DNA of 64,000 nt. Origin: a virus. Under the pieces are notes generated by a model. That model did no database searches. It saw nothing but the letters and a program-made list of their open reading frames with translations, and had not been told where the DNA came from. Made by a program: the position numbers and the translations under genes. How positions within the stretch are numbered: the first letter of the stretch is position 1; each line of letters opens with the position of its first letter. The stretch spans positions 6,095-70,094 of IMG/VR virus record IMGVR_UViG_3300028151_000001; one strand, written 5' to 3'. Below are positions 3,859 through 60,564 of the stretch, in pieces.

Positions 3859-4857
3859 TTAGATATTTCTGACTCCACCATGCTCTTCAAATATTCTGAT
3901 TACATGTTCTATATTTGAGGGGAAAGTAGTTTCTGTATATCCATCTGCCATTTCATACTTACTTAAAATACCTACTGTCATCGAATGCATACAGGTTCTT
4001 TCAGCTGCCTTACAGGATTGTACATCAGGATAAACCCATACACCATAATTAATAATAGAATAAACGGAGTTTAGGTTCTGAGACTTAATCCTCTCGGATG
4101 ATATGTTAGCCACACCAAACTTGATTGCAACTGTGTGAGAGTCATCCATTACCAAATTTATATAGGTTTCTTGAGGTCGTTGATGACTACACTTACAGCA
4201 CCTACTGCCTTTATACAAACCTACAATGTGCCCCTCTCCGTGAGTTTCACATTCAGGGCAATAAACATTCCAATATTTCTTGTGCCCGTTCTTATCAAGT
4301 CTGGGGCTTCTTGTGAATATTGTCCCTAAAGGGAATCCAGACTCCATGAAGCGTTTTATCATAACCTCATCATCTTTTCTCTTAAAGTCTCCCATCTTAA
4401 CGGCTTTGCAACCATTACAACCAGAGTCGTACTTCTTATCCAACAACGCACACAGAAGAGAACCTGAATACTCTCCGTGTACTGGACATTCAAGTAGCAC
4501 CTTAGTAAAGTTAGACTTCTTGTACTCTGAAGCCCAACCTATAAATCTCACCCCTTTTAATTTTGCAGATCTTGAGGCCCTGATTTTGTACTGATGTTCT
4601 GTCCAAGCGAATTTTCCAGAACAACCACATGGCTTGTGACCTTTTAATAGATGGTGTTTTGTTGTCACAAAGTAACCGCCATTAAACAGCTCTATATCCT
4701 CAGCACAAACACTACATCTTAAAATAAATCTTTTACTTGTCTGTCCCTCCATTCTTCCATTCCAACCTACAACTGTAGAACTTCCAAATAAACTGCCAAC
4801 AAAATCGTCATCTGTCCTAAGTTCTCCATCTATAATCAACTCTTCTAGACTACTCAT
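3859..4857 (-). CDS. putative homing-endonuclease-like protein: Cys-rich Zn modules plus C-terminal T5orf172/GIY-YIG-like domain
   Basis: Multiple CxxC/CPxHG/CGC motifs; C-terminal ETYINL...IKFGV...AE...GYTET; paralog of 44440..45414. Confidence 0.6.
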   Translation of the reverse strand: MSSLEELIIDGELRTDDDFVGSLFGSSTVVGWNGRMEGQTSKRFILRCSVCAEDIELFNGGYFVTTKHHLLKGHKPCGCSGKFAWTEHQYKIRASRSAKLKGVRFIGWASEYKKSNFTKVLLECPVHGEYSGSLLCALLDKKYDSGCNGCKAVKMGDFKRKDDEVMIKRFMESGFPLGTIFTRSPRLDKNGHKKYWNVYCPECETHGEGHIVGLYKGSRCCKCSHQRPQETYINLVMDDSHTVAIKFGVANISSERIKSQNLNSVYSIINYGVWVYPDVQSCKAAERTCMHSMTVGILSKYEMADGYTETTFPSNIEHVIRIFEEHGGVRNI

Positions 4858-8486: not shown

Positions 8487-8672
8487 TCATTTCTCTTCTC
8501 CAATTCTAATCAATTCTTCAATATCCGATATAACTTTCTGGATATCTTCATTCTCAGGGATATTCAATTTCTTACTAATCTTATGCATTTTATTTGAGCA
8601 TAAGACAAGCTGTTTGTTGATGCTGTGTAGCTGTTTAAGTAGCTGTTTGTGTGTCATTAAAATTCCATCCAA
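8487..8672 (-). CDS. hypothetical coiled-coil protein
   Basis: ORF track. Confidence 0.6.
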   Translation of the reverse strand: MDGILMTHKQLLKQLHSINKQLVLCSNKMHKISKKLNIPENEDIQKVISDIEELIRIGEEK

Positions 8673-9520
8673 GGGTTACCAACACAAATCACATTAGGGA
8701 TCTTAAGCTCATGCCACATACGTACGACGCTAGGACGATCATCTACAACACCAAGGACATTATACTTGGGTGCAATATCCCTCCAGAAGATTTCTTCCTT
8801 TACAACAGTATCCTTACGTGTATCTCCTTCTGGACGTATAAAGAATTCATCAAATGGCACCATGTTACAATCCAACCATTCCTCTGTAAGACCTTTGCAA
8901 ACACCATCACGGCCACTCACAACAATAATATCATACTTCAAATGTTTATAGAACCTTGCCATTTCCACAATAAACACTCTTGAATCATCAGTGCCTACTT
9001 TATCCCAGTCAAAAGGACTGCGACCGTTCATCTGAGCCAGTGTACCATCAATGTCAAAAATTACAGCTTTGTCCAGACTCGTATCCGGTGTATAGGTTTT
9101 ACGACCTTTGTATTCAAGCCATTTCTGGTATTGACTATAAATCACACTGTGACCAACACCGTTTTTACGAACAGAATCGCGTTTCCAAGCTGTCTCAAGG
9201 GAAACTTCAAACTCTTTTATCTCTACATCATAACCAATATCTGTCAACAACGTAATCCATTTATCACGTGTGACAGGGTTCAGGTTGGTATCTGAAATAA
9301 TAACATCTTGACCTTTACTCAGAGCATCCATAACCATCTGCTCTTGGATAAGTGTCACCTCGTTTTCTTTCTTCTTACTAAACTTATAACTGGACCAATC
9401 AGTACCCGGACAAATGATATTAAACCTAATCCAGTCACGGTTAATGTCCACAGCCTCTTGTTGACTTGCCCAGAATGTCTTACCACTCGTACTGATGCCA
9501 ACTGTCACCCAAGCCTTCAT
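8657..9520 (-). CDS. pseT: polynucleotide 5'-kinase / 3'-phosphatase (T4 PseT-like)
   Basis: N-terminal P-loop GISTSGKT with RDWIR; HAD DIDGT, VSGR, K, VVDDR in C-terminal half. Confidence 0.92.
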   Translation of the reverse strand: MKAWVTVGISTSGKTFWASQQEAVDINRDWIRFNIICPGTDWSSYKFSKKKENEVTLIQEQMVMDALSKGQDVIISDTNLNPVTRDKWITLLTDIGYDVEIKEFEVSLETAWKRDSVRKNGVGHSVIYSQYQKWLEYKGRKTYTPDTSLDKAVIFDIDGTLAQMNGRSPFDWDKVGTDDSRVFIVEMARFYKHLKYDIIVVSGRDGVCKGLTEEWLDCNMVPFDEFFIRPEGDTRKDTVVKEEIFWRDIAPKYNVLGVVDDRPSVVRMWHELKIPNVICVGNPWMEF

Positions 9521-10602
9521 ACAAAACTCTCCAATACTTTCATTTTGAATGACTCGCTCTGTTCATGGAAAGTGTCACTGACACCCTTCTTCTTTTGTCG
9601 TGCTTGAAACAGAACAGCAGCATAATTATACTCTTTTACAGCAAGTGCAAATTCTTTTTGCGCGACAATGCCTTCAAATCGAGTATAGACCACCTCCATC
9701 TCGTGAAGAAGTTTTTCAAAAGTTTTTACATAAGGAGTAAAGAATTTCTCATCCTCTGGGAAGTAGTTAAGGTATTCATCCTGCTCATTAATCAGCACCA
9801 GTTGCATGATTCGTTTTGGTGACAAGCCTTCTCCGCGAATGTGATGTACGGCAACATATGCAGGACTCTTCACCTTACAGACGGGCTTACCATCTTGATA
9901 TACAACATAACCCTCTTCAAGATCAGGGAGATGTTTTGCAGTTTCAATACAATCTTCCACGCTAGAAAAACTATATATGTTAATCTCACGAGCACCTAGA
10001 GTCAAGGCAGCTTCTTTTTCATATTCATCACCAAACTCACCCGACTGATTGTGCCGAGAAGCAAGATAGTGAAGTTTATAACCATCATAAGACTTTACAA
10101 TACGATTCTCACGGCAAGTAAGCTCGCAGATATATGTCCAATCAGCATCCAACCACAGGTCACACAGCACTTGGAACTCCGTTTCATCATCACAATCAAG
10201 CGCTTTAAACACAAGGGATTTGAAAGAGTCTCCAAAGTTGCAACCACTCTCAGCAAAAGCTGTACCACGAGTAGAGCAATACCAAGTGTTTTTCCAGTTG
10301 TAAATCTTAATCAAACTACCATCTACCTTCTCGTGACAGATAGCCTTACTCCAATCAAGATGAGTTTGTGTATCTGGTTGCTCGCCGAGGTTAAAGAAAC
10401 GATCAAGGCTACGTGAAACAATATTGAATTCATGATCAAGGATCAAACCACGGCATTCTTTTACAATATCATTTGACTTTGGACTGTTAATCTGATCGTA
10501 GTTAAGAACATACAAACCTTCTTCATACTTCTTTACCATAATTCCGAACTCCTCGTTCAGTTTTACAGTGCCGTGTTCTTTAATATAGTCAATTACTTTC
10601 AT
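9517..10602 (-). CDS. rnl1: RNA ligase 1 (T4 Rnl1 family)
   Basis: RSLDRFFN, EKVDGSLI (motif I), EGYV, KVK motifs; start moved to ATG 10602 (AGGAG SD); adjacent to Pnk. Confidence 0.9.
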   Translation of the reverse strand: MKVIDYIKEHGTVKLNEEFGIMVKKYEEGLYVLNYDQINSPKSNDIVKECRGLILDHEFNIVSRSLDRFFNLGEQPDTQTHLDWSKAICHEKVDGSLIKIYNWKNTWYCSTRGTAFAESGCNFGDSFKSLVFKALDCDDETEFQVLCDLWLDADWTYICELTCRENRIVKSYDGYKLHYLASRHNQSGEFGDEYEKEAALTLGAREINIYSFSSVEDCIETAKHLPDLEEGYVVYQDGKPVCKVKSPAYVAVHHIRGEGLSPKRIMQLVLINEQDEYLNYFPEDEKFFTPYVKTFEKLLHEMEVVYTRFEGIVAQKEFALAVKEYNYAAVLFQARQKKKGVSDTFHEQSESFKMKVLESFV

Positions 10603-10678
10603 TTTGAATTTCTCCTGATAAATTTGAATAGTGAGAATAACAGAAAGCCTCCAGTGCGTCAACACCAGAGGCTAAGAA

Positions 10679-10867
10679 TTATCCAAAAATGTGATCCCGA
10701 TTCTCCTGAAAATAATCCCGAAGCATTTCACTGACTTCATAGTTATGCCATCCTGTCCCAATGATCACTTCATGACCATCTCCTTTGAGAATATTCTTCT
10801 CGATCATCATTTCAGCAGCCCAACACCAGCTTCCATCACTAAAGAGGTATACAGATGTCTTGTCCAT
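10679..10867 (-). CDS. hypothetical protein
   Basis: ORF track. Confidence 0.7.
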   Translation of the reverse strand: MDKTSVYLFSDGSWCWAAEMMIEKNILKGDGHEVIIGTGWHNYEVSEMLRDYFQENRDHIFG

Positions 10868-11277
10868 TAGATTTCTCCAAGGTACAAAGCTTGATTCTCA
10901 ATGGATGTGAAAGTCACCATATGATTTTGACAAGTGATCTTTTTATTCTTACGAGAATACTGAAGCTTTGCCACTTCTACAATTTTAGCAGCTTGTGCAC
11001 AATACAAATCAAACCTTCCAATCTTCTCTTGTGGAAATGTGTGATTGTAAGCTTTAGGGTTTGTATTGTGAAGGTACACAGCTGTAGCAAAAGAAATCCT
11101 ACCAACTCCGTAACGAAAACCATGATGCACGCTGTAAAATGATGCACCTTCGTGAATAAATTCATTTGGTGTGTAGTTGAAACCAAGCACTGCCATAAAA
11201 GCAATTACAGAGTTAATTTGACATTGCTTTGTGTCTACAATTTTGTATTCATTTCCTTCTTTGTCATAGCCGATCAT
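10867..11277 (-). CDS. hypothetical protein
   Basis: ORF track; AGGAG SD. Confidence 0.75.
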   Translation of the reverse strand: MIGYDKEGNEYKIVDTKQCQINSVIAFMAVLGFNYTPNEFIHEGASFYSVHHGFRYGVGRISFATAVYLHNTNPKAYNHTFPQEKIGRFDLYCAQAAKIVEVAKLQYSRKNKKITCQNHMVTFTSIENQALYLGEI

Positions 11278-11288
11278 TTGGTTTCTCC

Positions 11289-12350
11289 TTATTCATAATC
11301 ACGAAATGTCACAAACGTGGGGAACTGAGGCAGGCTTGTATCTTTGTAAAGAGTTTGGTATTTGACAGTGATAAGCTTACCAATCAAAGACTCTTTCGCA
11401 ACCAACCACTGTTTGCGTTGCTCGTGTGTCCCACCTACAACATTGAATTTATTATTTGCAAATGTATTCTGAACAACAAAAACAGCACCTCCGTCTTTGT
11501 CGCTTACAATATCCACAATCTGAAACTCAGAATCAAGGAACTCTTTATACTTTTGAAGATCAGCAGATCTTTTACCTGATTCATATAGGCCGGAATCATT
11601 ACGAAGCATAATACCCTCATAACCACGAGCAACACAATCTTTATGTGCAGACTTCATCTCTGCTTCAGACGACACTTGAGTGTAGACAATAGCGTCAACT
11701 TGCTTGCTAATAGTACGCCCATTGATTGCAACAATATCAAGAAGTCTGTCCTCAAAGCGTTTATCATTCACAACATCAAAAACAACAAACCACACTTCCG
11801 GCGTCATACTGTTAGGCTTCTTTACAGCAGATATAATCTCTTCAAGATATTTCCCGTGGATATACAACTCACCGTCCCATATCTCACCAATTCGCATAGA
11901 TTGCTTTAATTGCTCTTGAATGTGTTTTACATCATACAGTTTACCACTACGTGATTTAAGAGTTACACCATCTTCTGAGCATATAGCAAGACAACGTACA
12001 CCATCTAGCTTGTCACTAACCCAACAAGGGTATTTAATTCGATGGCCCTGTTTGAGATAATCGTTAGCAAGCATTGGGAGCAAAGGAAGTTCAACCAGAT
12101 CATCTTTAGATAGGCGATAACCCTTGTCTTTCTGTTTCTCAATCTTACTCAGTGCTTCAAGTTCTGCTTGTTGACTTGGTGTTGTCTCATTACTACGACC
12201 AATGTTCTTACCTTTGACAGATTCAATCTTCAACTGAATCTTGCCATTTTCCTGACCATGCTCAATATGAATCTCTTCATCTTTTGTTTCAATAGCCCAA
12301 AGCTTATATCCACCAGCTTTGTTTAGGCCATATAGTGTTACTTTATCCAT
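11289..12350 (-). CDS. lig: ATP-dependent DNA ligase
   Basis: PMLA, KLDGVR (motif I), DGELY, VFDV, EGIMLR, KYK, FPTF OB-fold end. Confidence 0.95.
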   Translation of the reverse strand: MDKVTLYGLNKAGGYKLWAIETKDEEIHIEHGQENGKIQLKIESVKGKNIGRSNETTPSQQAELEALSKIEKQKDKGYRLSKDDLVELPLLPMLANDYLKQGHRIKYPCWVSDKLDGVRCLAICSEDGVTLKSRSGKLYDVKHIQEQLKQSMRIGEIWDGELYIHGKYLEEIISAVKKPNSMTPEVWFVVFDVVNDKRFEDRLLDIVAINGRTISKQVDAIVYTQVSSEAEMKSAHKDCVARGYEGIMLRNDSGLYESGKRSADLQKYKEFLDSEFQIVDIVSDKDGGAVFVVQNTFANNKFNVVGGTHEQRKQWLVAKESLIGKLITVKYQTLYKDTSLPQFPTFVTFRDYE

Positions 12351-15579: not shown

Positions 15580-16368
15580 TTATTTGAAAGCTTTTGCAAT
15601 ATCATTAACCTCTTCCAAAGCCTTCTTTGTCCGACTAGAAGGCTGTTTTGGTTGAGCCATTTTAGCGGCTTTGGCTTCACGTTGCAAGCGTTGTTTATCG
15701 TAAGCTGCAATTCCTTTCTCTACAGCTGCGGCAATGATGTCTTCAAGGGATGTTTCTTCGAATTTTTCTTGTTCACCACATTCTTCACAATCAGGATTGT
15801 CGCAAGGTTGAGTATTTCTATACTCTGTCAAACTGTCCAGCCGTTCCGCAATTTGTTCAGAACTAAAGTAGAACGGAGTCCCTTTGATTACGTCTGAAAT
15901 TTCTTCCGTTGAGAGGTAGCCACTGTACACATTTTCATACAATCGTTTCAGTTGATTACGGCTGAAGTTTGCATGCTCCAGAATGTCAGTATCCTTACCT
16001 CCCAATGAGTAACTACTTGTATGAATCATCAAGCTGGAAGTGTCATCCAAGATCCATTCACGAGCCGAAAGTGCAATCACGCTGCCAGCACTGGCTGTCT
16101 CAGGACCAATGATTGCAATAGTGTGTGCTTCACAGTTCTTCAAGGCCCGATGGAACAACATTGCAGTATCTAGATATCCACCCGGCGTGCACACATCTAG
16201 AACTATACAATCCTCTGAACCAACACTGTTAATTAGATCAATTTCTTCAGTCCACTCACTAGGTTCTCCAATACCCTCCCAAATACGGATAACATGAGTC
16301 ATGCCCGGATTATGGGTGGACGAGATACGTGACTTTTGGGGCAACAGCATCAGTTCTTCATGTTTCAT
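15580..16368 (-). CDS. clpP: ClpP-like serine protease with acidic/basic C-terminal tail
   Basis: TPGG oxyanion region, ASAGS catalytic Ser, MIH catalytic His; start moved to ATG 16368 (GGAG SD). Confidence 0.82.
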   Translation of the reverse strand: MKHEELMLLPQKSRISSTHNPGMTHVIRIWEGIGEPSEWTEEIDLINSVGSEDCIVLDVCTPGGYLDTAMLFHRALKNCEAHTIAIIGPETASAGSVIALSAREWILDDTSSLMIHTSSYSLGGKDTDILEHANFSRNQLKRLYENVYSGYLSTEEISDVIKGTPFYFSSEQIAERLDSLTEYRNTQPCDNPDCEECGEQEKFEETSLEDIIAAAVEKGIAAYDKQRLQREAKAAKMAQPKQPSSRTKKALEEVNDIAKAFK

Positions 16369-16369
16369 G

Positions 16370-17116
16370 TTATTCACTCTCCCGTTCTTTAGCCTGAACC
16401 ATTGCTTTACAAAGACCACCACGAACAATATCTTCGCTGGTTGCTGTAATTACTTTAATGTGCTTCTGAAGTTCTGGGTTATTAGCTACAAACTTAGTAA
16501 GCCATTCGATACCATTAACACCTTTGATATCTGTCTGGTGTCCAGTACCATCACCAATTAGAATTAATTTAGCCCCATGTTCCATACGAGTTAACATTGT
16601 GTAGAGTTCGTCCGGGGCCATACACTGGACCTCATCTATCACACACACATCGGAGATAGACCGACCTCTCGCATACTCAGGTGCGAGAAGCTCAATTGAT
16701 CCGTTTGCAAGGCAGTTCTCGTAGTAGCTTTTGCCGTAACGTTTCCACAACACTTCAAGCAATGGCATCAAGAAAGGTTCAAACTTCTGTTGCAAGGTTG
16801 ATGGAAGCATGCCCAAACTACGTCCCATTGGGATCACAGCACGAGAAAGAGTAATCTTGTTATAAACTCCCTTTTTAAGCCAGTCAGACACCTCACTCAT
16901 TGTCAAGTATGATTTTCCCACGCCTGCGGGAGCAGAAAACACAACTACATCAAACTCTTTAAGCGCATTCAAGAACAATTTCTGAACATCATTCTTTGCA
17001 GACACCGGAGCAGCCAGATAGTTTTCATCTTGAAACTTAGGCTTCAGAACACGGCCAATATCAGCCTTTTTAACCCAACGTTCTTCCACTACTTGTGCTT
17101 GATTACGCTTAGCCAT
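16370..17116 (-). CDS. phoH: PhoH-family ATPase
   Basis: APAGVGKS Walker A, LSR, LG.LP, RGRS, IDEVQ, LTR, GD..Q.DI, DIVR. Confidence 0.93.
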   Translation of the reverse strand: MAKRNQAQVVEERWVKKADIGRVLKPKFQDENYLAAPVSAKNDVQKLFLNALKEFDVVVFSAPAGVGKSYLTMSEVSDWLKKGVYNKITLSRAVIPMGRSLGMLPSTLQQKFEPFLMPLLEVLWKRYGKSYYENCLANGSIELLAPEYARGRSISDVCVIDEVQCMAPDELYTMLTRMEHGAKLILIGDGTGHQTDIKGVNGIEWLTKFVANNPELQKHIKVITATSEDIVRGGLCKAMVQAKERESE

Positions 17117-19630: not shown

Positions 19631-19660
19631 TTGACAGGGGATAAAGGGGGGGTGTACATT
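19631..19660 (+). promoter_or_regulatory. possible sigma70-type promoter for the rightward block
   Basis: TTGACA-18 nt-TACATT, divergent from the 19556 promoter. Confidence 0.5.
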
Positions 19661-19851
19661 GGTTGGAGATTTGGAGGTGGGCTAGGTTAAATAGTTGATC
19701 ATTTTTTGTACTATAAAATCCTAATCTCCTCTACAGCCCTTACAGACCGGGGCTTAAGCAAATAAATGTTATACAATACAACCTACCTATCTGTATCTAT
19801 CTACCAGATATCTTATAGGGCTTAATACAGAGATTTTAACAAGGAGAGAGG

Positions 19852-21204
19852 ATGATATATGAATTAAAGGATATGAATGAGGTAGAGAGATACATGCTTA
19901 CTCTATGCTCCAAGGATTCATATCTCTACTACCATAAAACAAAGATGTATGAATCTGTAGTCGTAGAATTGCTATCAAAGACAAAGGATAAATGGGAGAA
20001 TGCGGTAAGATGGTTTGTAACCAATACAGCCAGAGGTTTGAAGCATAAAGCCCATGCTATGAATGTGTCTCTTCTTTCCAACTACTACTCCAAGAACGTA
20101 TGTGGTATTGGATACAGGAATGTTAAATCATTACTTGACTTACTGGAGTCAAAAGGTTATATTCACATCTATAAAGGGTTTGTAGAAGAGTGGGAAGTGA
20201 GGGATAAAAAGCTTGTTCCTGTAAAAGCCTTCCGTTCTGTTGTCCTCTTTAGGAAGAGATACCTTGAGCTTTGGAATGACATACCGGTGGATCTATACGC
20301 TAAGGGCACTGAGCTAGAATTAATTAACCTGAAAACCAGAAAGACAAAAGAAGATATTTCTCTTAAAGGAAAGGCAGGTGTTACAAACATGAGAAAGGAG
20401 ATGGAATTGTATAACGAAAATCTTTACAGTGCTGACATTAAATTCAACGGACAGCCAATTGCTGTTGTTGAATACAAACGTGAGTTTCTTGATAATCTAA
20501 ACTCATGTGGTCGAGTTTTCGCAGCAGGCGGGGGTGTTCAGCTACTTCCACAACGGTATCGTGCAGATTTCCTTACAATTGACAATGAGAGTGTTGTGGA
20601 GCTTGACTTTTCATCAATCCACCCCAACATATGCTATCAATTGATCCACAACAGTGGGCAAGATGTGCGAGGTATTCTTGGTGAAGACTTTAAACCTTAT
20701 GATGCTAAGCTTGATTTTGTAAAAGTAGACTGGATGCTTATTGAACAGCATAAAAAGAAGTTTGGTATTGAGTCTTATGACCCTGTTCGTAACATCGCGA
20801 AGCTTGCTCTGTTGGTGGGCATGAATTGTGTAGACATTGAAGAGGCTATTGGGGCTGTTAGTCAGAAGCTTAAAAATGATTATCAGAAGGATGAGGTTAA
20901 GCGTAAATTTGTTGGATTGGTCAGTAAAGTGCCAGTAAGAGCTATCCTTGAGGCAATCAGGGAACATAACTTTTTGATTGAGGATTATTTCTTTAATGAC
21001 TATGGTGTGCAGCTCCAAAACATAGACAGCAAGATTGCAAGCTCCGTTATCTCAACACTGGTACAGCTTGACATCACTGTGCTGTCTTACCACGATAGTT
21101 TCGTGACAGCAGCAAAGCATGAGAAAGTTTTGAGGCAAGCCATGTATGATGCATGGTCTGATAATTTAAAAGATGCTACATTTGCCAAGGCAGATAAGAA
21201 ATGA
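19852..21204 (+). CDS. uncharacterised family-A polymerase-like protein (PolA/T7-RNAP-type palm, no exonuclease, N-terminal wHTH-like region)
   Basis: CGRVF...VQLLP (motif 2a-like), ELDFSSIHP (motif A), RNIAK (motif B), LQNIDS, SYHDSF (motif C). Confidence 0.6.
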   Translation: MIYELKDMNEVERYMLTLCSKDSYLYYHKTKMYESVVVELLSKTKDKWENAVRWFVTNTARGLKHKAHAMNVSLLSNYYSKNVCGIGYRNVKSLLDLLESKGYIHIYKGFVEEWEVRDKKLVPVKAFRSVVLFRKRYLELWNDIPVDLYAKGTELELINLKTRKTKEDISLKGKAGVTNMRKEMELYNENLYSADIKFNGQPIAVVEYKREFLDNLNSCGRVFAAGGGVQLLPQRYRADFLTIDNESVVELDFSSIHPNICYQLIHNSGQDVRGILGEDFKPYDAKLDFVKVDWMLIEQHKKKFGIESYDPVRNIAKLALLVGMNCVDIEEAIGAVSQKLKNDYQKDEVKRKFVGLVSKVPVRAILEAIREHNFLIEDYFFNDYGVQLQNIDSKIASSVISTLVQLDITVLSYHDSFVTAAKHEKVLRQAMYDAWSDNLKDATFAKADKK

Positions 21205-21428
21205 ATGACATAGATAAATTCTGCCCTTGCTGTGAACAAGGAGAACTTTTCAATAAAAAGAAAACAAGAAAAGCTACATATCTAGGGGTTAAGGGTGAAA
21301 TACTGATGTATTACTCTGTTTGTAGCTACTGTGGAACTGAACAAGCTTGCATGTCTCAAGTAGAAGTAAATGCAGACAATCTGATCTGCTTTCATAGAAC
21401 AGTTGAAAGGTTTGTCTTTAATAAATAA
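21201..21428 (+). CDS. YgiT/MqsA-type zinc-finger protein
   Basis: CPCCEQG...T.KATYLG......Y.VCSYCG; ATGA coupled to the polymerase-like gene. Confidence 0.6.
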   Translation: MNDIDKFCPCCEQGELFNKKKTRKATYLGVKGEILMYYSVCSYCGTEQACMSQVEVNADNLICFHRTVERFVFNK

Positions 21429-21495: not shown

Positions 21496-21681
21496 TTGTC
21501 CACTATGGGCGAAGTAAGTTTTTGTTCACAGTGTGGTCGCCTTGACGGATATTGCGTCTGTGAAATTGAAGTAGAATACTTGGAAGACAGTATGGAAGTG
21601 TTTAGGGTGGAGTGGGCTTTTGAAAGCCTAACTTGCCCAGACGAAACTATGTACAAAACTATTTTACCAAAGTATGAATAA
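21496..21681 (+). CDS. small Cys-rich hypothetical protein (likely ATG 21505)
   Basis: ORF track; CSQCG...CVC; GAGG SD. Confidence 0.6.
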   Translation: MSTMGEVSFCSQCGRLDGYCVCEIEVEYLEDSMEVFRVEWAFESLTCPDETMYKTILPKYE

Positions 21682-21716: not shown

Positions 21717-21849
21717 AGATATATTGATGGAGAAAAGATATGAATGAAGAGTACGAAGGGTTTTAAAGAGCAACAAATCCTTGGTGATATGGCACGATTC
21801 TAGCAATTTCCATAATGTTTGTTGGTAGGATGAGAACAAGGATAAATTA

Positions 21850-21963
21850 ATTTGATGTACTTAGTGTGAATGCGGCTGTCTTTGATCCGTTCAACTCGGA
21901 TGTAGAAAGTGGTTTTCCAAAGGCATTGCTTAGCTAGTCAGGTGCAATTCCTGAACATCAAAT
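21850..21963 (+). ncRNA. tRNA-like structured RNA with a nested T-arm/D-arm insert
   Basis: ATTTGATGT/ACATCAAAT terminal stem; TCAGG-TGCAATT-CCTGA T-arm; inner ATCCG-TTCAACT-CGGAT and GAAAGTGGTTTTC hairpins closed by GTCTTTG/CAAAGGC. Confidence 0.5.
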
Positions 21964-22440
21964 GGGTTCGCACTTCACAAAACATGCTTAGGCTGAGTGG
22001 GTGTGACGCTGCCAGAGTTGGCATATGCAGCTATGATGCCGATAAGATTAGTCTTACGGTAGAACTCAAAACTAAAAAGACTGAACCGTCCCTATCAAGT
22101 GGTAGGTTGTCTTCTTGCCTGTAACAAGGCTAGTCCATGACAGTAAAGAGTTTTAATTCGGGATCTGTTTAGAAAGTCAGAATGCGAGCTACACGTGAGG
22201 ATGTTCAACTCGAAAGCTAATTTGGCCCTCCATTAGCAAGTAGAGCACAGTCGAGTTCTGATAAAGTCGTCTTACAAGAAACAGCGATAAGGTAATTACT
22301 CATCCTTATGTATGACTTGTAAGGTGCAATAATTTAGATTAGCTTGTCTGTCTATTTTAGCTGTACAGCTAATAGTGATGATTGAGCTAATAATGATTTG
22401 ACCCCCCAACACGAAGAATCAATTCTATAAAGTTGGGATT
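21964..22440 (+). ncRNA. candidate large structured non-coding RNA
   Basis: No credible ORF; dense short stems (GCCA-GAGT-TGGC, GCCT-GTAACA-AGGC, GCTAAT/ATTAGC, CTTACAAG/CTTGTAAG enclosing ATAAGG/CCTTAT, palindrome TAGCTGTACAGCTA). Confidence 0.4.
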
Positions 22441-22451
22441 CACCGCTGATA

Positions 22452-22624
22452 AGAGTCTTCTCCTACTCTGACTCAGTACTTAAAGACCTCAGAGGTTTCT
22501 CCTCCCCTTAAGGTCTTTCATGTTCTTGTGTCTTGCCCTCTCCTCTCGGCATGAGAACATTTTCTAAATAATCTTGTTGTTTATTAACGATATTGCCAGT
22601 TAGCTGGTCAGGATTATTTAGAAA
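22452..22624 (+). ncRNA. tandem hairpins with CUCCU-containing loops followed by a 16-bp stem
   Basis: Stems at 22452-22469, 22482-22518, 22520-22560 and 22561-22624 read directly from sequence. Confidence 0.5.
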
Positions 22625-22637
22625 ATAATATTCCTCA

Positions 22638-22740
22638 TGTGTATTTACTTGGTCTCATGGGTTCGTCTATTGGTTAAGACTCCACAAGCCGCCTCGTCGC
22701 AGGATAAAGCTGGTTCGATTCCAGCATCAAGAAGTACACA
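22638..22740 (+). tRNA. degenerate (pseudo) tRNA; anticodon not assignable (GTC/Asp-like remnant possible)
   Basis: Perfect T-arm GCTGG-TTCGATT-CCAGC, D-arm GTCT-ATTGGTTA-AGAC, acceptor CTTGGT/ATCAAG; poorly paired anticodon arm, no CCA. Confidence 0.5.
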
Positions 22741-22862
22741 GTAGAAATATTATTTAATAGTAAGAAGTCCCCTCTGTACAACAAGCGTCTCTTACATCTT
22801 AGGATTTAGTCACAGCATATTCGTTCTGACTAAACTCCGAACAATTGCGTAGGAATAATGAT

Positions 22863-23405: not shown

Positions 23406-24065
23406 TTGGCAAGATTAGTTTCTGGTTTAGGTATTAATGATTTAGATTATGCTGTTGCACCCGTTATTAATGGAAAACAAGAACGTTGCCCATTCTATTT
23501 TAGATGGAAACATATGCTAACTCGATGCTCAGATATGTATAAAGAAAAAGATCGGGGAGTTTATGCAGATAAAGAAGTTCATCCAGAGTGGCTTAGAGCC
23601 AGCAACTTCAAATCTTGGATGGAGAATCAACATTGGCAAGGTTATGATTTAGATAAAGATATTCTAGTACCGGGCAACAAGATATACGGTCCAGATACTT
23701 GTGTGTTTATCCCACAGTGGCTAAACAAGGTAGTTATTTGCGCAGACAAAGCTAGAGGAAAATATCCTCTGGGTGTTTCTTATTTAACTGATAAGAATAT
23801 GGTGAATGAAAAATCAAAACCTTTCGTAAGCACGGTTAATATTTTTAAGGAAGGTAAATCTATCCTTGAGTATTTGGGTGTCTACTCTACACCAGAAGAT
23901 GCACATAAAGCGTGGCAAGTAGCAAAGATTGAATGTTTACAAATATCTATTGAAAGATATAAGTTAGAAAAAGGCTATGATCTAAGGGTAGAAAATTCCC
24001 TGCAAGCAAGGATTCAAAAGATAAAATTAGAAGCTGCTCAAAATTTAGAAACATTGAGCTTGTAA
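23406..24065 (+). CDS. HNH-type homing endonuclease with AP2-like C-terminus
   Basis: GLGIND...WKHMLTRC...YDLDKDIL..GNKIYGPDTCVFI; paralog of 2366 and 62057. Confidence 0.8.
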   Translation: MARLVSGLGINDLDYAVAPVINGKQERCPFYFRWKHMLTRCSDMYKEKDRGVYADKEVHPEWLRASNFKSWMENQHWQGYDLDKDILVPGNKIYGPDTCVFIPQWLNKVVICADKARGKYPLGVSYLTDKNMVNEKSKPFVSTVNIFKEGKSILEYLGVYSTPEDAHKAWQVAKIECLQISIERYKLEKGYDLRVENSLQARIQKIKLEAAQNLETLSL

Positions 24066-27315: not shown

Positions 27316-28386
27316 TTGAATTACGAAAAGATTTACAATGCACTTGTAGAAAAAGCTAAAGTTCGTGGTCTTGATAAAAGGCAGCATGAAGGTTACTTTG
27401 AGATTCATCACATTATACCTAGATCACTAGGTGGAAGTAATGAGGACAGTAATCTGGTAATGCTGACAGGACGTGAGCACTTTGTAGCTCATATGTTACT
27501 TTGGAAAGCTTTTCCTCAAGAAAAGAGCTTAACTTTTGCAGCAATGATGATGAGTAATCGATCTGTTTGTAAAGTTAACTCGTATATTTATGAAAAACTC
27601 CGTGCTGATTTTTGCGTAGCATTATCTGAAAAATTTTCTGGAAAGCGGGTTAAAGACTTAGTTGGTAAACGTTTTACTAAGTTAGTTGTAAAAGAGTTTG
27701 CGGATTTTTATTATTCACCCGGAGGCTCTAAGCAATCAACTTGGATTTGTGAGTGTGATTGCGGCGGTGTAATTACTGTCGTAAGTGGCAGCTTAACTAG
27801 TAAAAATACACAATCCTGTGGTTGTTTATTGGCTGAATCTGGAAAAGCCCGTACAGGTGAAAATAACCACATGTGGGGCAAGAAGCACACAGAAGAAACA
27901 AAAGAAAAGTTTAAATCCCGAAATTATTTGAAGGGTGAAAATCATCCTTTCTTTGGTAAAAAGCTCTCTGAAGAGCATTGTAAGAATATGAGTGAGGCTA
28001 GGAAAGGTATTGGTTGGTCTGAAGAAACCCGTGAAATTATGATGAAATCCATGCGGTACGGTGAAGACCACCACATGTTTGGAAAGTCTCATCCTCCTGA
28101 ATTACTTAGGCAGATTTCACAATCGTTGAAGGCGCGTGACCAAAAGCCTTGGGAGAACTTAGCCACTCAAACCGAAGAATCATTGATTAAGTGGTCGGTG
28201 TGTGACTACTATTATGATCTTTGGATCCAATTTGATAGACCCGGTTTAAAAGTATTTACTAAAATTTATAACCAAACCCACAACGATAATGTAAGTTTGT
28301 CTTTCTTCACAAACCCTAGACTTAAATGGCTAGCTGGTTGGATTCCTAAAGAAGATCCTAAGTGGGTAGAATTCTCTAAAGGATAG
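27316..28386 (+). CDS. HNH homing endonuclease with NUMOD3-like repeats
   Basis: EIHHIIPRSLGG.N..SNLV.LT.REH..AH HNH motif; CECDCG..SCGC; NHMWGKKHTEETK and NHPFFGKKLSEE repeats. Confidence 0.88.
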   Translation: MNYEKIYNALVEKAKVRGLDKRQHEGYFEIHHIIPRSLGGSNEDSNLVMLTGREHFVAHMLLWKAFPQEKSLTFAAMMMSNRSVCKVNSYIYEKLRADFCVALSEKFSGKRVKDLVGKRFTKLVVKEFADFYYSPGGSKQSTWICECDCGGVITVVSGSLTSKNTQSCGCLLAESGKARTGENNHMWGKKHTEETKEKFKSRNYLKGENHPFFGKKLSEEHCKNMSEARKGIGWSEETREIMMKSMRYGEDHHMFGKSHPPELLRQISQSLKARDQKPWENLATQTEESLIKWSVCDYYYDLWIQFDRPGLKVFTKIYNQTHNDNVSLSFFTNPRLKWLAGWIPKEDPKWVEFSKG

Positions 28387-53360: not shown

Positions 53361-53463
53361 TAATTAAGAAAGTGACTAGGCTTCTAAGTATAAGGATTTG
53401 ATTCTACAGGCCACGTAGAATAAGGGCTGTAGAGGTGGTCATGTATAAAGGGAATACATAGAA

Positions 53464-55938: not shown

Positions 55939-56054
55939 TTGTTCAAATCCTCCGTAAGTTCAGATGTAATTTTATACCTTGTATTGTTTTTCATATCAAC
56001 CTCCAAATCATAGATAAAAGAAAATCCGCAAGGGCTTGTAGGCCGATGCGGATC

Positions 56055-56083
56055 ATTATGGGCTTGTTTCAGGTGGGTGTCAA
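56055..56083 (-). promoter_or_regulatory. sigma70-type promoter
   Basis: TTGACA-17 nt-CATAAT on minus strand. Confidence 0.8.
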
Positions 56084-56093
56084 GGGGTTATTT

Positions 56094-56285
56094 TTATGCT
56101 TTTGTTAGGCAGCTTTTACACATACAAACATCGCTCAGTTCCAACCCCTTGCTCTGCACATTGAAGCACCAGCAAGTGTTTTTACCTTGTGAAATGTCAC
56201 ATCTAACTGGACTTTCACACCGAGGGCATGAGTGGGTGACACTTGACTGACAGCCTACTTTTTCCATTAGTTCAACGTAATCCAT
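56094..56285 (-). CDS. cysteine-rich CWC family protein
   Basis: CPRC....C.......CWC...........C.C..CL pattern. Confidence 0.8.
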   Translation of the reverse strand: MDYVELMEKVGCQSSVTHSCPRCESPVRCDISQGKNTCWCFNVQSKGLELSDVCMCKSCLTKA

Positions 56286-56293
56286 AAATCCTC

Positions 56294-59085: not shown

Positions 59086-59268
59086 TCACTCCTCATCATT
59101 CATAAAATAATCTTGTACAGATTCATCAGCAAGCCAAGCCAGATAAATTTCTTCGCGTGTATCAAGGATACGTCTTGCAGCATTTGCACTACTCATCATT
59201 CCTCGGACTTGATACAGATTCCACAGGTCATTCATGTAGTCGCAGAATGAATAGTCAACTTGTTTCAT
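59086..59268 (-). CDS. hypothetical protein
   Basis: ORF track. Confidence 0.65.
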   Translation of the reverse strand: MKQVDYSFCDYMNDLWNLYQVRGMMSSANAARRILDTREEIYLAWLADESVQDYFMNDEE

Positions 59269-59917
59269 GGGGTTTCTCCACTAGTGCTTTCCAACTTACC
59301 GGGAAGATATTAGCAATTTCTTTACCTACCAATTCAGCTACCACTTTAACTTCTTTCTGTGCTGTAGGGTCTGTCCGCTTCAAGTAGAAGTTAGCAAAGC
59401 TTACTAGATTACCTGTCCAAATCCAATTAACAATTGCTCCTTGTGGCAGAACAAAGCGACATTGTTCGGGACAAACACCATCTTTCAACATAGCTTGGTA
59501 TATATCTACACACTCGGCAACACGCTGCTCATAACGACAAATCCAATCATCAGACCGCACATGTTTCTCCCCACTACCTTGCTTAATACTCCCTTCTGGC
59601 TTGGACCGGAAGAATTCGGGAATAAAAATCTCAGGTGTTGTAGAGATATACCGACGACTCTCTTCGTTTTCCACCATCCCAATTTTGTGCTTAAAACATT
59701 GTGTGCGAATTGGGACAGGAGCTGCTACACGAAACTTCAAGCCTGTGTGGGCAAAGGGCGTCCAATGTTTGTGAGATGCTAAGTAGCGAATCAGTTTACC
59801 GTCCCGGTCTTCATCAAAGATATCTCCAGAGTCTTTTGCAAAACTAACTCTTGCTGCTTGTACTATAGCAAGGTCGCTACCCATTGAATCTAGCAGTTCT
59901 ACTTTGATCTGGCTCAT
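59255..59917 (-). CDS. thyX: flavin-dependent thymidylate synthase
   Basis: AARVSF, H.TPF.H, KHK...NEESRRY variant ThyX motif, PEQ.R.VLP, R....AQ.E. Confidence 0.92.
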   Translation of the reverse strand: MSQIKVELLDSMGSDLAIVQAARVSFAKDSGDIFDEDRDGKLIRYLASHKHWTPFAHTGLKFRVAAPVPIRTQCFKHKIGMVENEESRRYISTTPEIFIPEFFRSKPEGSIKQGSGEKHVRSDDWICRYEQRVAECVDIYQAMLKDGVCPEQCRFVLPQGAIVNWIWTGNLVSFANFYLKRTDPTAQKEVKVVAELVGKEIANIFPVSWKALVEKPHETS

Positions 59918-60399
59918 TATTTAAACTCTCCCGGTACACATACACTCAAATCAGGACGAATATGGCTCTTCAACTTCATCACCTTACTATCTGACACACG
60001 CTTCACAGTGTACAGCAATTCACCGTCAAATGTAAGCTCATCAATGTAATATTCACCACCTTGAGACGCTTGTAAGTGATCCTTACTCATCTGTGCATAT
60101 GTGAAGCTATTCGTTGTTTTCTGTAGGTTATTCTCGCATACAACTTCCCAAGCTTTCTTTGTATTACAACCATATGCTTCAAGAAGGTGTTCAAGATATG
60201 TATTCAGAAACTTGATATCCATACAAGCATCAACAATCTCTTGCATGTCTTCCTCACTTGAAGCTTCCTCAAGCTCATTCACTTCTTCCAAGAGAAGTTT
60301 TGATTGCTGCTTGATTTGTTTAAACACTTCATAGTGTGTAGCCATACTTGGTGCATTACCAATTGCATATCCGAATTTTACACAGTCACGCTTACTCAC
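59917..60399 (-). CDS. MazG-like / phosphoribosyl-ATP pyrophosphohydrolase-type NTP pyrophosphatase
   Basis: LLEEVNELEEA...EIVDACMD acidic motif; V...NL.K. Confidence 0.75.
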   Translation of the reverse strand: MSKRDCVKFGYAIGNAPSMATHYEVFKQIKQQSKLLLEEVNELEEASSEEDMQEIVDACMDIKFLNTYLEHLLEAYGCNTKKAWEVVCENNLQKTTNSFTYAQMSKDHLQASQGGEYYIDELTFDGELLYTVKRVSDSKVMKLKSHIRPDLSVCVPGEFK

Positions 60400-60554
60400 A
60401 AAAACTCCTTAATCAAACTTTTAATTACTTCAGTTGTTTTAATAAGCATTTCCCTTTCTTCTTCAATATCTGCAACGTACATACTATAATGATCTTCTAA
60501 ATATTGTTCAAGGAAATCAACAATAAGGTAAAGCTCATCTTGGTCATATTTCAT
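60396..60554 (-). CDS. small acidic hypothetical protein (52 aa), not in ORF track
   Basis: MKYDQDELYLIVDFLEQYLEDHYSMYVADIEEEREMLIKTTEVIKSLIKEFL; GGAG SD. Confidence 0.6.
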   Translation of the reverse strand: MKYDQDELYLIVDFLEQYLEDHYSMYVADIEEEREMLIKTTEVIKSLIKEFL

Positions 60555-60564
60555 TTCTTTCTCC

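What the first reader, a model, noticed from the sequence alone, without database searches (positions are those of the whole stretch)
19852..21204. Minimal family-A polymerase with hybrid DNA-pol/RNA-pol motifs
The motif order matches PolA (GR...Q.LP; DFS; R..AK; Q..DS; HD), but motif C reads HDSF as in T7-type RNA polymerases rather than HDE. There is no 3'-5' exonuclease, and the N-terminus looks like a wHTH (LLDLLESKGYI). At 450 aa it is too small to be the replicase or a T7-like RNAP. It may be an origin-specific primase-like or RNA-synthesising enzyme, or a template-specific polymerase of unknown function.
Basis: partly seen in the sequence, partly recalled or inferred. Interest (0 to 1): 0.72.

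Follow-up and report, generated by a model that had tools for sequence, protein, structure and literature searches.

The report
Minimal TV-Pol-type polymerase in a phage
This phage gene encodes a stripped-down relative of DNA polymerase I and T7 RNA polymerase fused to a DNA-binding head; it belongs to a very large, unnamed phage family (also present in the cholera phage ICP1) that probably starts nucleic-acid chains at specific sites, most likely to begin phage DNA replication, but no member has been tested.

Summary
R221, R237, D252, Y283, R313, K317, H414 and D415 are invariant in 75 relatives.

It has no Pfam/NCBIfam match (PHROG 4756, unknown function; 2,839 clusters). It is not the replicase: the 89-kb genome has its own PolA and gp4-like primase-helicase, plus a second paralog.

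Profile comparison places it nearest the TV-Pol family of Iyer et al. 2008 (75%, E 2.5e-5, against 0.2% for canonical PolA). The Pol I sugar-selection residues are replaced (H257, L321, N325), so a DNA or RNA product is undecided.

The gene, a 177-bp leader and a coupled 75-aa zinc-ribbon ORF are swapped as one cassette between about 94%-identical phages, and a complex model supports binding (0.64; best control 0.02).

The ICP1 homolog (ORF100) is transcribed by 4 min and lies 2-4 kb from the mapped theta-origin peak.

Best reading: a site-directed primase-polymerase for replication initiation (about 0.45). A mini RNA polymerase is the main rival.

This scan has noted similar minimal polymerases on other DNA.

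The parts
19852..21204 (+). Gene for the 450-aa minimal family-A (TV-Pol-branch) polymerase, PHROG 4756
   Evidence: ORF and translation; PHROG 4756 E 1.7e-76; family-A fold
19852..20301 (+). Residues 1-150: N-terminal winged-helix-like domain with a long four-stranded beta wing. The helix at 88-100 (LLDLLESKGYI) is the candidate recognition helix
   Evidence: Folded alone, pLDDT 92.6. Only winged-helix proteins match, at modest Z 4.5-5.9. Weak HTH_34 (E 0.17) and TrmB (E 0.074) matches. The encoding DNA at 20104-20183 is the only stretch of the gene still alignable at DNA level between alleles
20302..20472 (+). Residues 151-207: linker with a single helix (177-192) where family-A enzymes have the thumb, so the thumb is vestigial
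   Evidence: DSSP of the model; residues 160-177 are part of the predicted interface with the zinc-ribbon ORF
20473..21201 (+). Residues 208-450: palm plus reduced fingers. It holds the Arg hairpin G220-R221 (20509-20514), motif A D252 with H257 (20605-20622), the fingers helix R313..K317..L321..N325 (20788-20826), the helix with Q389..D392-S393 (21016-21030), and motif C H414-D415-S-F (21091-21102)
   Evidence: Invariant or near-invariant columns; collinear profile alignment with TV-Pol from the hairpin to motif C; fold matches
21201..21428 (+). ZnR1: a 75-aa ORF with two CxxC pairs whose start overlaps the polymerase stop (ATGA). Candidate allele-specific small subunit
   Evidence: ORF; weak MqsA-type zinc-ribbon match E 0.044; swapped together with the polymerase gene; complex model median 0.64 against best control 0.02; no homolog in 57 related loci
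19675..21416 (.). Replaced cassette: 177-bp leader, polymerase gene and ZnR1. It differs from the near-identical phage L014, whose flanks are 91-96% identical
   Evidence: blastn of the window against L014; polymerase alleles at the same locus are only 43-50% identical
19631..19660 (+). Sigma-70-like promoter (TTGACA-18-TACATT) in the conserved part of the divergent intergenic region. It would give a leader of about 190 nt
   Evidence: Consensus scan, 10 of 12 matches; this is a pattern match only
19731..19780 (+). Conserved leader box CTACAGCCC-N9-GGGGCTTAAG-N14-CAATACA, followed by a G-poor CTATCT-repeat tract (19781-19812). Its function is unknown: a promoter, an operator or a recognition site
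   Evidence: The same architecture precedes alleles only 43-50% identical and precedes paralog 2. GG[CG]CTGTAG occurs 6 times in the genome against 0.6 expected. The core PWM hit is unique in the genome (24.8; next best 16.9). There is no consensus hairpin

Best explanation
The gene encodes a catalytically intact, minimal family-A nucleotide polymerase of the TV-Pol branch. It has a winged-helix head (residues 1-150), almost no thumb, and a palm with shortened fingers (residues 208-450).

Shown: the fold; the invariant Arg hairpin, the two Asp residues and the RxxxK motif; the sequence kinship to a TV-Pol; the presence of a separate replicase and primase-helicase; a second paralog; and cassette-type allele replacement.

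Inferred: the enzyme is made early from a host-type promoter. Its winged helix brings it to particular DNA, and it starts and briefly extends nucleic-acid chains without a primer (a primase-polymerase). The resulting 3' ends are handed to the phage PolA and gp4-like replisome, so it acts as a dedicated replication starter. In this phage it probably works with the co-swapped 75-aa zinc-ribbon protein, docked beside the thumb stump and the Arg hairpin.

Whether it polymerises dNTPs or NTPs cannot be told from the sequence.
For: Fold: all top Foldseek and VIA matches are family-A polymerases, from a model with pLDDT 96.3.

Catalytic integrity: R221, R237, D252, Y283, R313, K317, H414 and D415 are 75/75 conserved, and both paralogs keep them.

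TV-Pol kinship: the family profile finds only MaLMM01_gp030, the TV-Pol element beside IS605-type transposases, in that phage (E 2e-4). hhalign against a gp030 profile gives 75%, E 2.5e-5, over 172 collinear columns. Controls against a canonical PolA profile give 0.2% and 0.4%. TV-Pols were predicted to be primase-polymerases (PMC2579912). The one tested member, CcPol, primes DNA synthesis de novo with a small partner encoded directly downstream (PMC7581432; PMC10061031).

Not the replicase: the genome has PolA, a primase-helicase and an exonuclease elsewhere.

Vestigial thumb: a single helix, which argues for short products.

ICP1 homolog ORF100: it is already at 12.9-33k reads at 4 min, in parallel with the primase-helicase ORF57. 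It lies at 56.0-57.7 kb in the engineered reference (59.1-60.6 kb in MH310934). The 8-min theta-replication peak is 'near the 60 kb position'.

Position: paralog 1 is the first gene after a minus-to-plus strand switch, where cumulative GC skew has its minimum within the window; paralog 2 lies about 1 kb into the other plus-strand block, after a few small ORFs.

Cassette swap of leader, gene and ZnR1, as expected for an enzyme matched to its own partner or site.

Complex model with ZnR1: median 0.64, best of 3 controls 0.02. That mark was reached by 58 of 80 solved complexes and 2 of 110 mismatched pairs. Runs agree in at least 81% of contacts and partner pLDDT is at least 76.
Against: No activity of any member of this branch has been measured.

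The phage already has a conventional gp4-like primase-helicase, so a second primase is not obviously needed.

The TV-Pol link rests on one six-sequence profile at moderate probability (75%).

The defining TV-Pol contexts (D5-like helicase, transposase or resolvase) are absent here.

The two-helix thumb of the TV-Pol definition is not seen in the model.

The coupled small ORFs of other alleles are unrelated to ZnR1 and to one another, so a general two-subunit enzyme is not supported.

The ICP1 origin is mapped only to 1-kb bins and described as 'near 60 kb', 2-4 kb from ORF100.

GC-skew turning points coincide with transcription strand switches, so they are not independent evidence of an origin.

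No iterons or AT-rich unwinding element were found upstream.

Copy number varies from 1 to 2 among close relatives, and tblastn reports up to three matching places in some Vibrio phage records.

Motif C (HDS) and the Q..DS helix resemble single-subunit RNA polymerases more than Pol I.
Confidence: 0.45

Rival explanations
1. It is a minimal single-subunit DNA-dependent RNA polymerase that transcribes a set of phage genes. The winged helix takes the place of the promoter-recognition parts of T7 RNAP. The two paralogs could have different promoter specificities.
For: Fold matches to yeast mitochondrial RNAP (Z 12.4), T7 RNAP (10.9), N4 vRNAP (8.2) and N4 RNAP II (6.9) are about as good as those to DNA polymerases. 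Motif C is HDS (67/75) as in T7-type RNAPs, and Asp lies three residues after Q389 as in the RNAP 'H-S-x-D' helix (established knowledge of T7 RNAP H784..D787). The Pol I steric-gate Glu and F762 are replaced by H257 and L321, unlike the dNTP-using CcPol. Paralog 1 is the first gene upstream of the structural block on the same strand, as T7 gene 1 is. The ICP1 homolog is early, and ICP1 late transcription does not depend on replication (PMC13595925). A promoter-like box (GGSCTGTAG-N13-16-TACAAT/AATACA) precedes both paralogs.
Against: The Tyr that T7-type RNAPs use to select NTPs (Y639) is Asn in 67 of 75 members. There is no specificity loop or T7-like N-terminal domain, and the thumb needed for processive multi-kb transcripts is vestigial. 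No repeated long promoter was found in the 64-kb window. The box has only about 6 copies in the genome, one of them at a convergent junction. A 43%-identical allele replaces the gene in an otherwise 94%-identical genome, which is hard to reconcile with an enzyme matched to many promoters. The nearest sequence relative is TV-Pol, not RNAP.
Confidence: 0.22
2. It is a primer-dependent accessory DNA polymerase without proofreading, used for gap filling, lesion or modified-base bypass, or recombination-dependent synthesis. It is not a chain starter.
For: The family-A fold matches include Pol nu and Pol theta (Z 10.3-11.8). It lacks an exonuclease and has reduced fingers. It coexists with a complete replisome. 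CcPol alone only extends primers. The genome is rich in repair-type enzymes: polynucleotide kinase, RNA ligase and DNA ligase.
Against: This does not explain the winged-helix head, the position at strand switches, the cassette-type allelic diversity, or 1-2 divergent copies per genome. The residues Pol I uses for sugar and base selection are not kept.
Confidence: 0.15
3. It acts in phage-host or phage-phage conflict, for example by making a decoy or signalling nucleic acid or by countering a defence system. It has no role in replication or transcription.
For: Alleles diverge very fast between near-identical phages, copy number varies, and the downstream small ORFs are hypervariable. The gene is early and sits among small unknown early genes. 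ICP1 evolves by allele swaps linked to counter-defence (PMC9040626).
Against: No PADLOC or defence-type context was examined or seen. The catalytic core is under strong purifying selection and looks like a template-directed enzyme: the R221 hairpin and Q389 correspond to duplex-contacting residues of Pol I (established knowledge). The ICP1 gene is at least 99.7% identical across 43 isolates, which is unlike an arms-race gene in that lineage.
Confidence: 0.1
4. It is an inactive polymerase relic that serves only as a DNA-binding regulator through its winged helix.
For: The winged-helix segment is the only part of the gene still alignable at DNA level between alleles.
Against: Both metal-binding Asp residues, the Arg hairpin and RxxxK are invariant in 75 of 75 diverse members and in both paralogs.
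Confidence: 0.03

Closest known systems
TV-Pol (Transposon-Virus polymerase) family, Iyer, Abhiman and Aravind 2008 (PMC2579912), e.g. Microcystis phage Ma-LMM01 gp030
   Same: Size (400-600 aa). A minimal family-A core without a nuclease. A beta-hairpin with an invariant Arg, two invariant palm Asp residues and RxxxK in the fingers. The signature G-x-R-x-Y-x-x-G-G-G-x-Q ... R ... D-x4-H and K..(L/I)N is shared with gp030. Coexists with a normal replisome.
   Different: The N-terminal domain is a winged helix, not the all-helical domain described. The thumb is one helix, not a two-helix hairpin. Motif C is HDS, against HDG/A in the gp030 group. There is no D5-like helicase, transposase or resolvase neighbour. 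It is carried as 1-2 copies by lytic phages of about 85-92 kb here (up to three matching places in some 115-140 kb Vibrio phage records) and is swapped as a cassette.
CcPol-MP primase of staphylococcal SCCmec elements (Bebel et al. 2020, PMC7581432; Rice 2023, PMC10061031)
   Same: A small family-A polymerase with a shortened thumb, and a small, fast-evolving protein encoded immediately downstream. A complex is predicted here too. CcPol-MP is the only biochemical precedent for a family-A enzyme that starts chains de novo.
   Different: CcPol keeps the Pol I E710 and F762 equivalents and uses dNTPs. This family has H257 and L321 (and N325 for Y766). The partner here is a zinc-ribbon-like protein, not an OB fold, and it is not conserved among alleles. 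No helicase gene follows.
T7-type single-subunit RNA polymerases, including the small two-subunit N4 RNAP II
   Same: Shared fold (Z 6.9-12.4), HDS in motif C, and Asp three residues after the Q/H of the preceding helix. T7 RNAP also primes replication at the T7 primary origin (established knowledge).
   Different: No Pfam RNA_pol match. No specificity loop, intercalating hairpin or full thumb. Asn replaces the NTP-selecting Tyr. About half the size of T7 RNAP.
Bacterial and phage DNA polymerase I (Pfam PF00476), such as the phage's own 811-aa PolA
   Same: Right-hand palm and fingers topology, and the same order of motifs (Arg hairpin, A, B, Q-helix, C).
   Different: No detectable sequence similarity (hhalign 0.2%; no Pfam hit). 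No exonuclease domain, shortened fingers, a vestigial thumb, and altered steric-gate, F762 and Y766 positions.

Membership tests
TV-Pol | [quoted passage not shown] | tested here: met
   Strands 208-213 and 221-224 with G220-R221, both 75/75. They align to the G-L-R of Ma-LMM01 gp030.
TV-Pol | RRM-like palm with two highly conserved metal-binding Asp residues | tested here: met
   D252 and D415 are 75/75. They sit on strand 246-253 and in the 411-420 hairpin. Both align to the D residues of the gp030 profile.
TV-Pol | Fingers module with an RxxxK motif (and a conserved Asp) | tested here: met
   R313 and K317 are 75/75, on helix 311-325. K317 and N325 align with K and N of gp030. For the conserved fingers Asp no clear equivalent was identified, so that sub-feature is inconclusive.
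TV-Pol | N-terminal thumb built on two antiparallel helices | tested here: not met
   Between the winged helix and the Arg hairpin, DSSP shows only one helix (177-192) and short strands.
TV-Pol | Significant profile similarity to a bona fide TV-Pol, stronger than to canonical PolA | tested here: met
   A1 against the gp030 profile A3: 75%, E 2.5e-5, 172 columns. A1 against PolA: 0.2%. A3 against PolA: 0.4%. Only one TV-Pol subgroup was tested.
TV-Pol | Linkage or fusion to a D5-like helicase, or to a resolvase, integrase or transposase | tested here: not met
   The neighbours are small unknown ORFs, HNH endonucleases and structural genes. No fused forms over 822 aa were found, though that is weak evidence.
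DNA polymerase I / family A (Pfam PF00476) | Match to the DNA_pol_A profile | tested here: not met
   No Pfam hit even at E 10, and none in 75 relatives. The same model finds the phage's true PolA.
DNA polymerase I / family A (Pfam PF00476) | Right-hand palm and fingers fold | tested here: met
   Foldseek top 50 are all family A, probability 1.00. VIA Z 10-14 over about 230-270 residues.
DNA polymerase I / family A (Pfam PF00476) | Steric-gate Glu (E710), F762 and Y766 of motifs A and B | tested here: not met
   By motif register these positions are H257 (72/75), L321 (54 L, 20 M) and N325 (67 N, 4 Y, 4 F). The register is inferred from the D-x4 and R-x3-K-x3-x-x3 spacing, not from a superposition.
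T7-like single-subunit RNA polymerase | Motif C H-D-S and the preceding helix with Asp three residues after H/Q | tested here: met
   H414-D415-S416 (S in 67/75) and Q389..D392-S393. The comparison with T7 RNAP H811-D812-S813 and H784..D787 is from established knowledge.
T7-like single-subunit RNA polymerase | Motif B Tyr (Y639) that selects ribonucleotides; specificity loop; N-terminal promoter-binding domain; Pfam RNA_pol match | tested here: not met
   N325 in 67/75. No Pfam match. The 243-residue core has no room for a specificity loop, and the N-terminal domain is a winged helix.
CcPol-MP (PolA-SSB) primase | A small partner encoded directly downstream that binds the polymerase | tested here: inconclusive
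   ZnR1 overlaps the stop codon and is co-swapped with the gene. The complex model gives 0.64 against control 0.02. However, the partner is not conserved in other alleles.
CcPol-MP (PolA-SSB) primase | The partner has an OB fold that binds single-stranded DNA; a helicase gene follows | tested here: not met
   ZnR1 has two CxxC pairs and a weak MqsA zinc-ribbon match. It was not folded on its own. No helicase gene lies downstream.
CcPol-MP (PolA-SSB) primase | Primer-independent DNA synthesis | not testable with these tools
   This needs a biochemical assay.

The most novel reading that the evidence does not exclude
This family is a previously unrecognised class of phage-encoded, site-directed chain-starting polymerases. 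It is a roughly 450-aa family-A enzyme that uses a winged helix, and in some alleles a private small subunit, to begin RNA or DNA synthesis de novo at a cognate box. If the product is RNA, then ICP1-like and these Felix-O1-like marine phages, which are currently said to encode no RNA polymerase, would carry the smallest known single-subunit RNA polymerase, used to prime the theta origin and/or drive a transcription class.
Probability: 0.2. Interest if true: 0.85.

Novelty: new variant of a known kind. Interest (0 to 1): 0.6.

Why it matters
The family is very large (2,839 clusters at 50% identity) and entirely unannotated. It has members in the well-studied cholera phage ICP1, where what starts theta replication and how gene expression is controlled are both stated open questions. 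Recent papers there still say the phage has no polymerase beyond Gp58. If the enzyme starts chains by itself, it would be only the second tested case of a family-A primase. It would also define how small a working family-A polymerase can be, and it would give a compact enzyme with unusual sugar-selection residues (His, Leu and Asn in place of Glu, Phe and Tyr). The cassette-type swapping with a private leader and small ORF suggests a specificity module that could explain replicon compatibility between co-infecting phages.

Tried and rejected
Sequence-only annotation gave nothing. Pfam and NCBIfam had no hits. PDB sequence and profile searches gave only a weak TrmB winged-helix hit. hhalign against the single own PolA sequence found nothing.

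Fused forms longer than 822 aa: none found, which is weak evidence.

A conserved downstream partner by sequence was rejected. ZnR1 has no homolog in 57 loci. ZnR2 (21496-21681) occurs in about 10 loci at varying distance. The first downstream ORFs fall into many singleton clusters and are chemically heterogeneous.

T7-style repeated long promoters: no such repeat family in the 64-kb window. The leader-box PWM is unique in the genome.

Iterons or an obvious origin structure in the 340-bp upstream region: only short, weak repeats.

A hairpin reading of the leader box was rejected as general. Some copies form a 9-bp stem, but RNAalifold finds no consensus structure over 14 copies.

The box is absent from the ICP1 locus.

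tRNA or Rfam elements downstream (21.4-23.0 kb): none, even with relaxed ARAGORN settings.

The search of bacterial genome contigs could not be run, because the alignment was too diverse for the pattern step. Presence in bacterial chromosomes is therefore untested.

An ICP1 gp102 literature search gave no relevant paper.

The N-domain Foldseek search had no hit at E <= 0.001.
Full report
THE OBJECT. window:19852-21204(+) is an uninterrupted 450-aa ORF. The window is part of an 89,104-bp phage record, of which it covers 6095-70094. The nearest annotated relative is Pseudomonas phage vB_PsaM_M1 (Ounavirinae), where the homolog is labelled 'DNA polymerase' without comment. The protein has no Pfam or NCBIfam match and falls in PHROG 4756, 'unknown function' (E 1.7e-76). 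An exhaustive HMMER search found 2,839 cluster representatives at E <= 1e-3, nearly all 400-560 aa. tblastn found it in 237 phage records from Vibrio (including ICP1), Aeromonas, Pseudoalteromonas, Shewanella, Rheinheimera and others.

FOLD AND ACTIVE SITE. An AlphaFold2 model built on 75 relatives is very confident (pLDDT 96.3, pTM 0.92). Foldseek's top 50 PDB hits are all family-A polymerases, with best E 3e-6. An exhaustive VIA-align search ranks apicoplast Pol first (Z 13.9), then Aquifex Pol I (12.7), yeast mitochondrial RNAP (12.4), Klenow (11.9), T7 DNAP (11.8), Pol nu (11.8), T7 RNAP (10.9), N4 mini-vRNAP (8.2) and N4 RNAP II (6.9), each over about 180-270 residues. The fold therefore does not separate a DNA polymerase from an RNA polymerase.

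The invariant columns are R221, R237, D252, Y283, R313, K317, H414 and D415, all 75/75. H257, Q389, D392, S393 and S416 are 89-99% conserved. These residues map in order onto the Arg hairpin, motif A, the O-helix RxxxK, the helix before motif C, and motif C.

By motif register, the Pol I steric-gate Glu is His257, F762 is Leu321 and Y766 (Y639 in T7 RNAP) is Asn325. Eight of the 75 members have Tyr or Phe at position 325, which supports that register. Motif C is HDS as in T7-type RNAPs. The one thing I could not measure is the distance between the two Asp residues.

N-TERMINAL DOMAIN AND THUMB. Residues 1-150 folded alone give pLDDT 92.6. They match only winged-helix proteins (MarR, CodY, CAP/FNR, eS10, kleisin, and ORC/Cdc6 WH domains) at Z 4.5-5.9. 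This is a generic winged helix with a long beta wing, not a member of any particular family. Between it and the palm there is a single helix (177-192) where family-A enzymes carry the thumb.

IT IS NOT THE REPLICASE. The genome has an 811-aa PolA (PHROG 17), a gp4-like primase-helicase (PHROG 239) and an exonuclease on the minus strand at 71-80 kb. It also has a second PHROG 4756 paralog at G000:C1:82732-84054(+), outside the window. That paralog is 25% identical and has all catalytic motifs intact. Paralog 1 is the first gene after a minus-to-plus strand switch and heads the structural block. Paralog 2 lies about 1 kb into the other plus-strand block, after a few small ORFs. The paralog 1 position is syntenic in the close phage group but not across the whole family.

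NEAREST KNOWN FAMILY. Iyer et al. 2008 defined TV-Pol as a 400-600-aa minimal family-A core. The core has a thumb hairpin, an Arg hairpin, two palm Asp residues and a fingers RxxxK motif. They predicted it to be a primase-polymerase.

I tested this link directly. The family profile finds exactly one ORF in Microcystis phage Ma-LMM01: gp030, which sits beside the IS605-type transposase genes, as that paper describes (E 2e-4). hhalign against a profile of six gp030 relatives gives 75% probability and E 2.5e-5. The match covers 172 collinear columns, from the GGR hairpin through D-x4-H, K..N and the LQ helix to HD. Controls with a four-sequence canonical PolA profile give 0.2% for this family and 0.4% for TV-Pol. 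The family is thus closer in sequence to TV-Pol than to Pol I.

It departs from the TV-Pol definition in three ways: the thumb, the N-terminal domain, and the absence of helicase or transposase linkage. The only characterised TV-Pol member, CcPol, makes DNA primers with dNTPs when bound to the small protein MP encoded just downstream, and it keeps the E710 and F762 equivalents. This family does not keep them, so its sugar preference cannot be inferred.

CASSETTE BEHAVIOUR AND A POSSIBLE PARTNER. Locus L014 comes from a phage whose flanks are 91-96% identical to ours. A block at window ~19675-21416 is replaced there: the 177-bp leader, the polymerase gene (43% protein identity) and the translationally coupled 75-aa ORF ZnR1. 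Among five related genomes the copy number is 1 or 2, and second copies are 21-37% identical to the first.

ZnR1 has two CxxC pairs and a weak MqsA-type zinc-ribbon match. A complex prediction gave a median score of 0.64 against a best control of 0.02. That mark was reached by 58 of 80 solved complexes and 2 of 110 mismatched pairs. The runs agree in at least 81% of contacts and partner pLDDT is at least 76. The predicted interface covers polymerase residues 160-177, 214-218, 264-270, 374-378, 387 and 391. The model supports binding but does not show it.

The ORFs coupled to other alleles are unrelated to ZnR1 and to each other. One is a DUF4326 protein. A general two-subunit enzyme is therefore not supported.

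LEADER ELEMENT. Upstream of alleles that share only 43-50% identity, and upstream of paralog 2, there is a common architecture. It reads (A/C)A(A/G)CCC, then N9-10, then G(G/T)GG(C/G)CTGTAG, then N13-16, then a -10-like TACAAT or GGAAT followed by ACA, then a G-poor CTATCT-type tract up to the ribosome-binding site. GG[CG]CTGTAG occurs six times in the genome against 0.6 expected. One occurrence is a perfect palindrome at the convergent junction (window ~53405-53452) and another lies at 81.9 kb. Some copies can form a 9-bp hairpin, but no consensus structure is found over all 14. It could be a phage-specific promoter, an operator or a recognition site. I could not decide, and the box is absent from the ICP1 locus.

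EVIDENCE FROM ICP1. The ICP1 homolog is ORF100 (ICP12006E_102), annotated as hypothetical and at least 99.7% identical across 43 isolates.

In the published RNA-seq counts it has 12.9-33k reads at 4 min, 20-41k at 8 min, and 11-17k at 16 min. This parallels the primase-helicase ORF57.

In the laboratory's engineered reference it lies at 56,043-57,710, and in MH310934 at 59,134-60,618. [quoted passage not shown]

Reviews and a September 2026 paper state that ICP1 encodes no RNA polymerase of its own. They also state that its expression control and replisome are incompletely known. No paper discusses this gene.

WEIGHING. What is shown:
- a catalytically intact, minimal family-A polymerase with a winged-helix head;
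- sequence kinship to TV-Pol;
- a separate replicase and primase-helicase in the same genome;
- a second paralog;
- cassette-type allele replacement;
- early expression of the ICP1 homolog.

What is inferred: chain starting at specific sites for replication initiation. This rests on the TV-Pol and CcPol precedent, the vestigial thumb, the DNA-binding head, the position at strand switches, and the proximity to the ICP1 theta origin. All of this is indirect, so I give it 0.45. A mini RNA polymerase (0.22) remains a real possibility because of the HDS motif, the Q..DS helix and the loss of the Pol I sugar gate. The Asn at the Tyr639 position, the missing thumb and the easy allele replacement argue against it. 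An accessory primer-dependent polymerase (0.15), a conflict function (0.10) and an inactive relic (0.03) follow.

NOVELTY. A family of this kind has been described and one member has been characterised. This finding is therefore a new variant of a known kind: a very large, unannotated phage branch with a different head, thumb and nucleotide-selection residues. Earlier notes of this scan describe similar minimal TV-Pol-like polymerases at strand-switch points in other phages and elements. I reached the TV-Pol link before reading them and tested it on this family only. Those notes are not independent evidence.

Noticed in passing
window 53405-53452 (genome ~59.50-59.55 kb): A perfect palindromic copy of the leader box (CTACAGGCC-N11-GGGCTGTAG on one strand, CTACAGCCC-N11-GGCCTGTAG on the other) at the convergent junction of the structural and replication blocks. 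The plus-strand copy is followed by the full ...GGAATACA motif but has no co-oriented gene downstream.
   Followed up: partly
G000:C1:82732-84054(+) = L063:12733-14055 (outside the window): A second PHROG 4756 paralog (440 aa, 25% identical, all catalytic motifs kept), followed by an overlapping 89-aa ORF. The GTGGCCTGTAG box lies about 70 nt upstream.
   Followed up: partly
window 21840-22845: About 1 kb without a convincing ORF, between the small zinc-ribbon ORFs and the 140-aa ORF. The relative phage M1 has three tRNA genes in the corresponding region, but here ARAGORN (even relaxed) and Rfam find nothing. Parts of it are conserved in L014 (86-94% identity).
   Followed up: partly
window 23406-24065(+); L063:7516-8193(-); L063:15011-15697(+); window 27316-28386(+): At least three PHROG 953 HNH endonuclease genes are scattered through the genome, one of them between PolA and the primase-helicase. 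A further homing endonuclease lies directly upstream of the large terminase, which suggests active homing and mosaicism.
   Followed up: no
window 8657-12350(-): An RNA/DNA end-repair set on the minus strand: polynucleotide kinase-phosphatase, T4 Rnl1-type RNA ligase and ATP-dependent DNA ligase. PhoH and a ClpP-like protease lie further along (15580-17116).
   Followed up: no
window 3859-4857(-): A 332-aa protein with three CapR-homology domains (Pfam PF21817, E 1e-28). This domain is known from ICP1 and its satellites.
   Followed up: no
L019:7356-7637(+): In one related phage, the small ORF translationally coupled to the polymerase gene is a DUF4326 protein (E 5e-29). This shows that the coupled position is filled by unrelated genes in different alleles.
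   Followed up: no
window 21496-21681(+): A second small cysteine-rich ORF (ZnR2, 61 aa) lies outside the swapped cassette. It is 95% identical in L014 and recurs downstream of about 10 of 57 family loci, including distant paralog types.
   Followed up: partly
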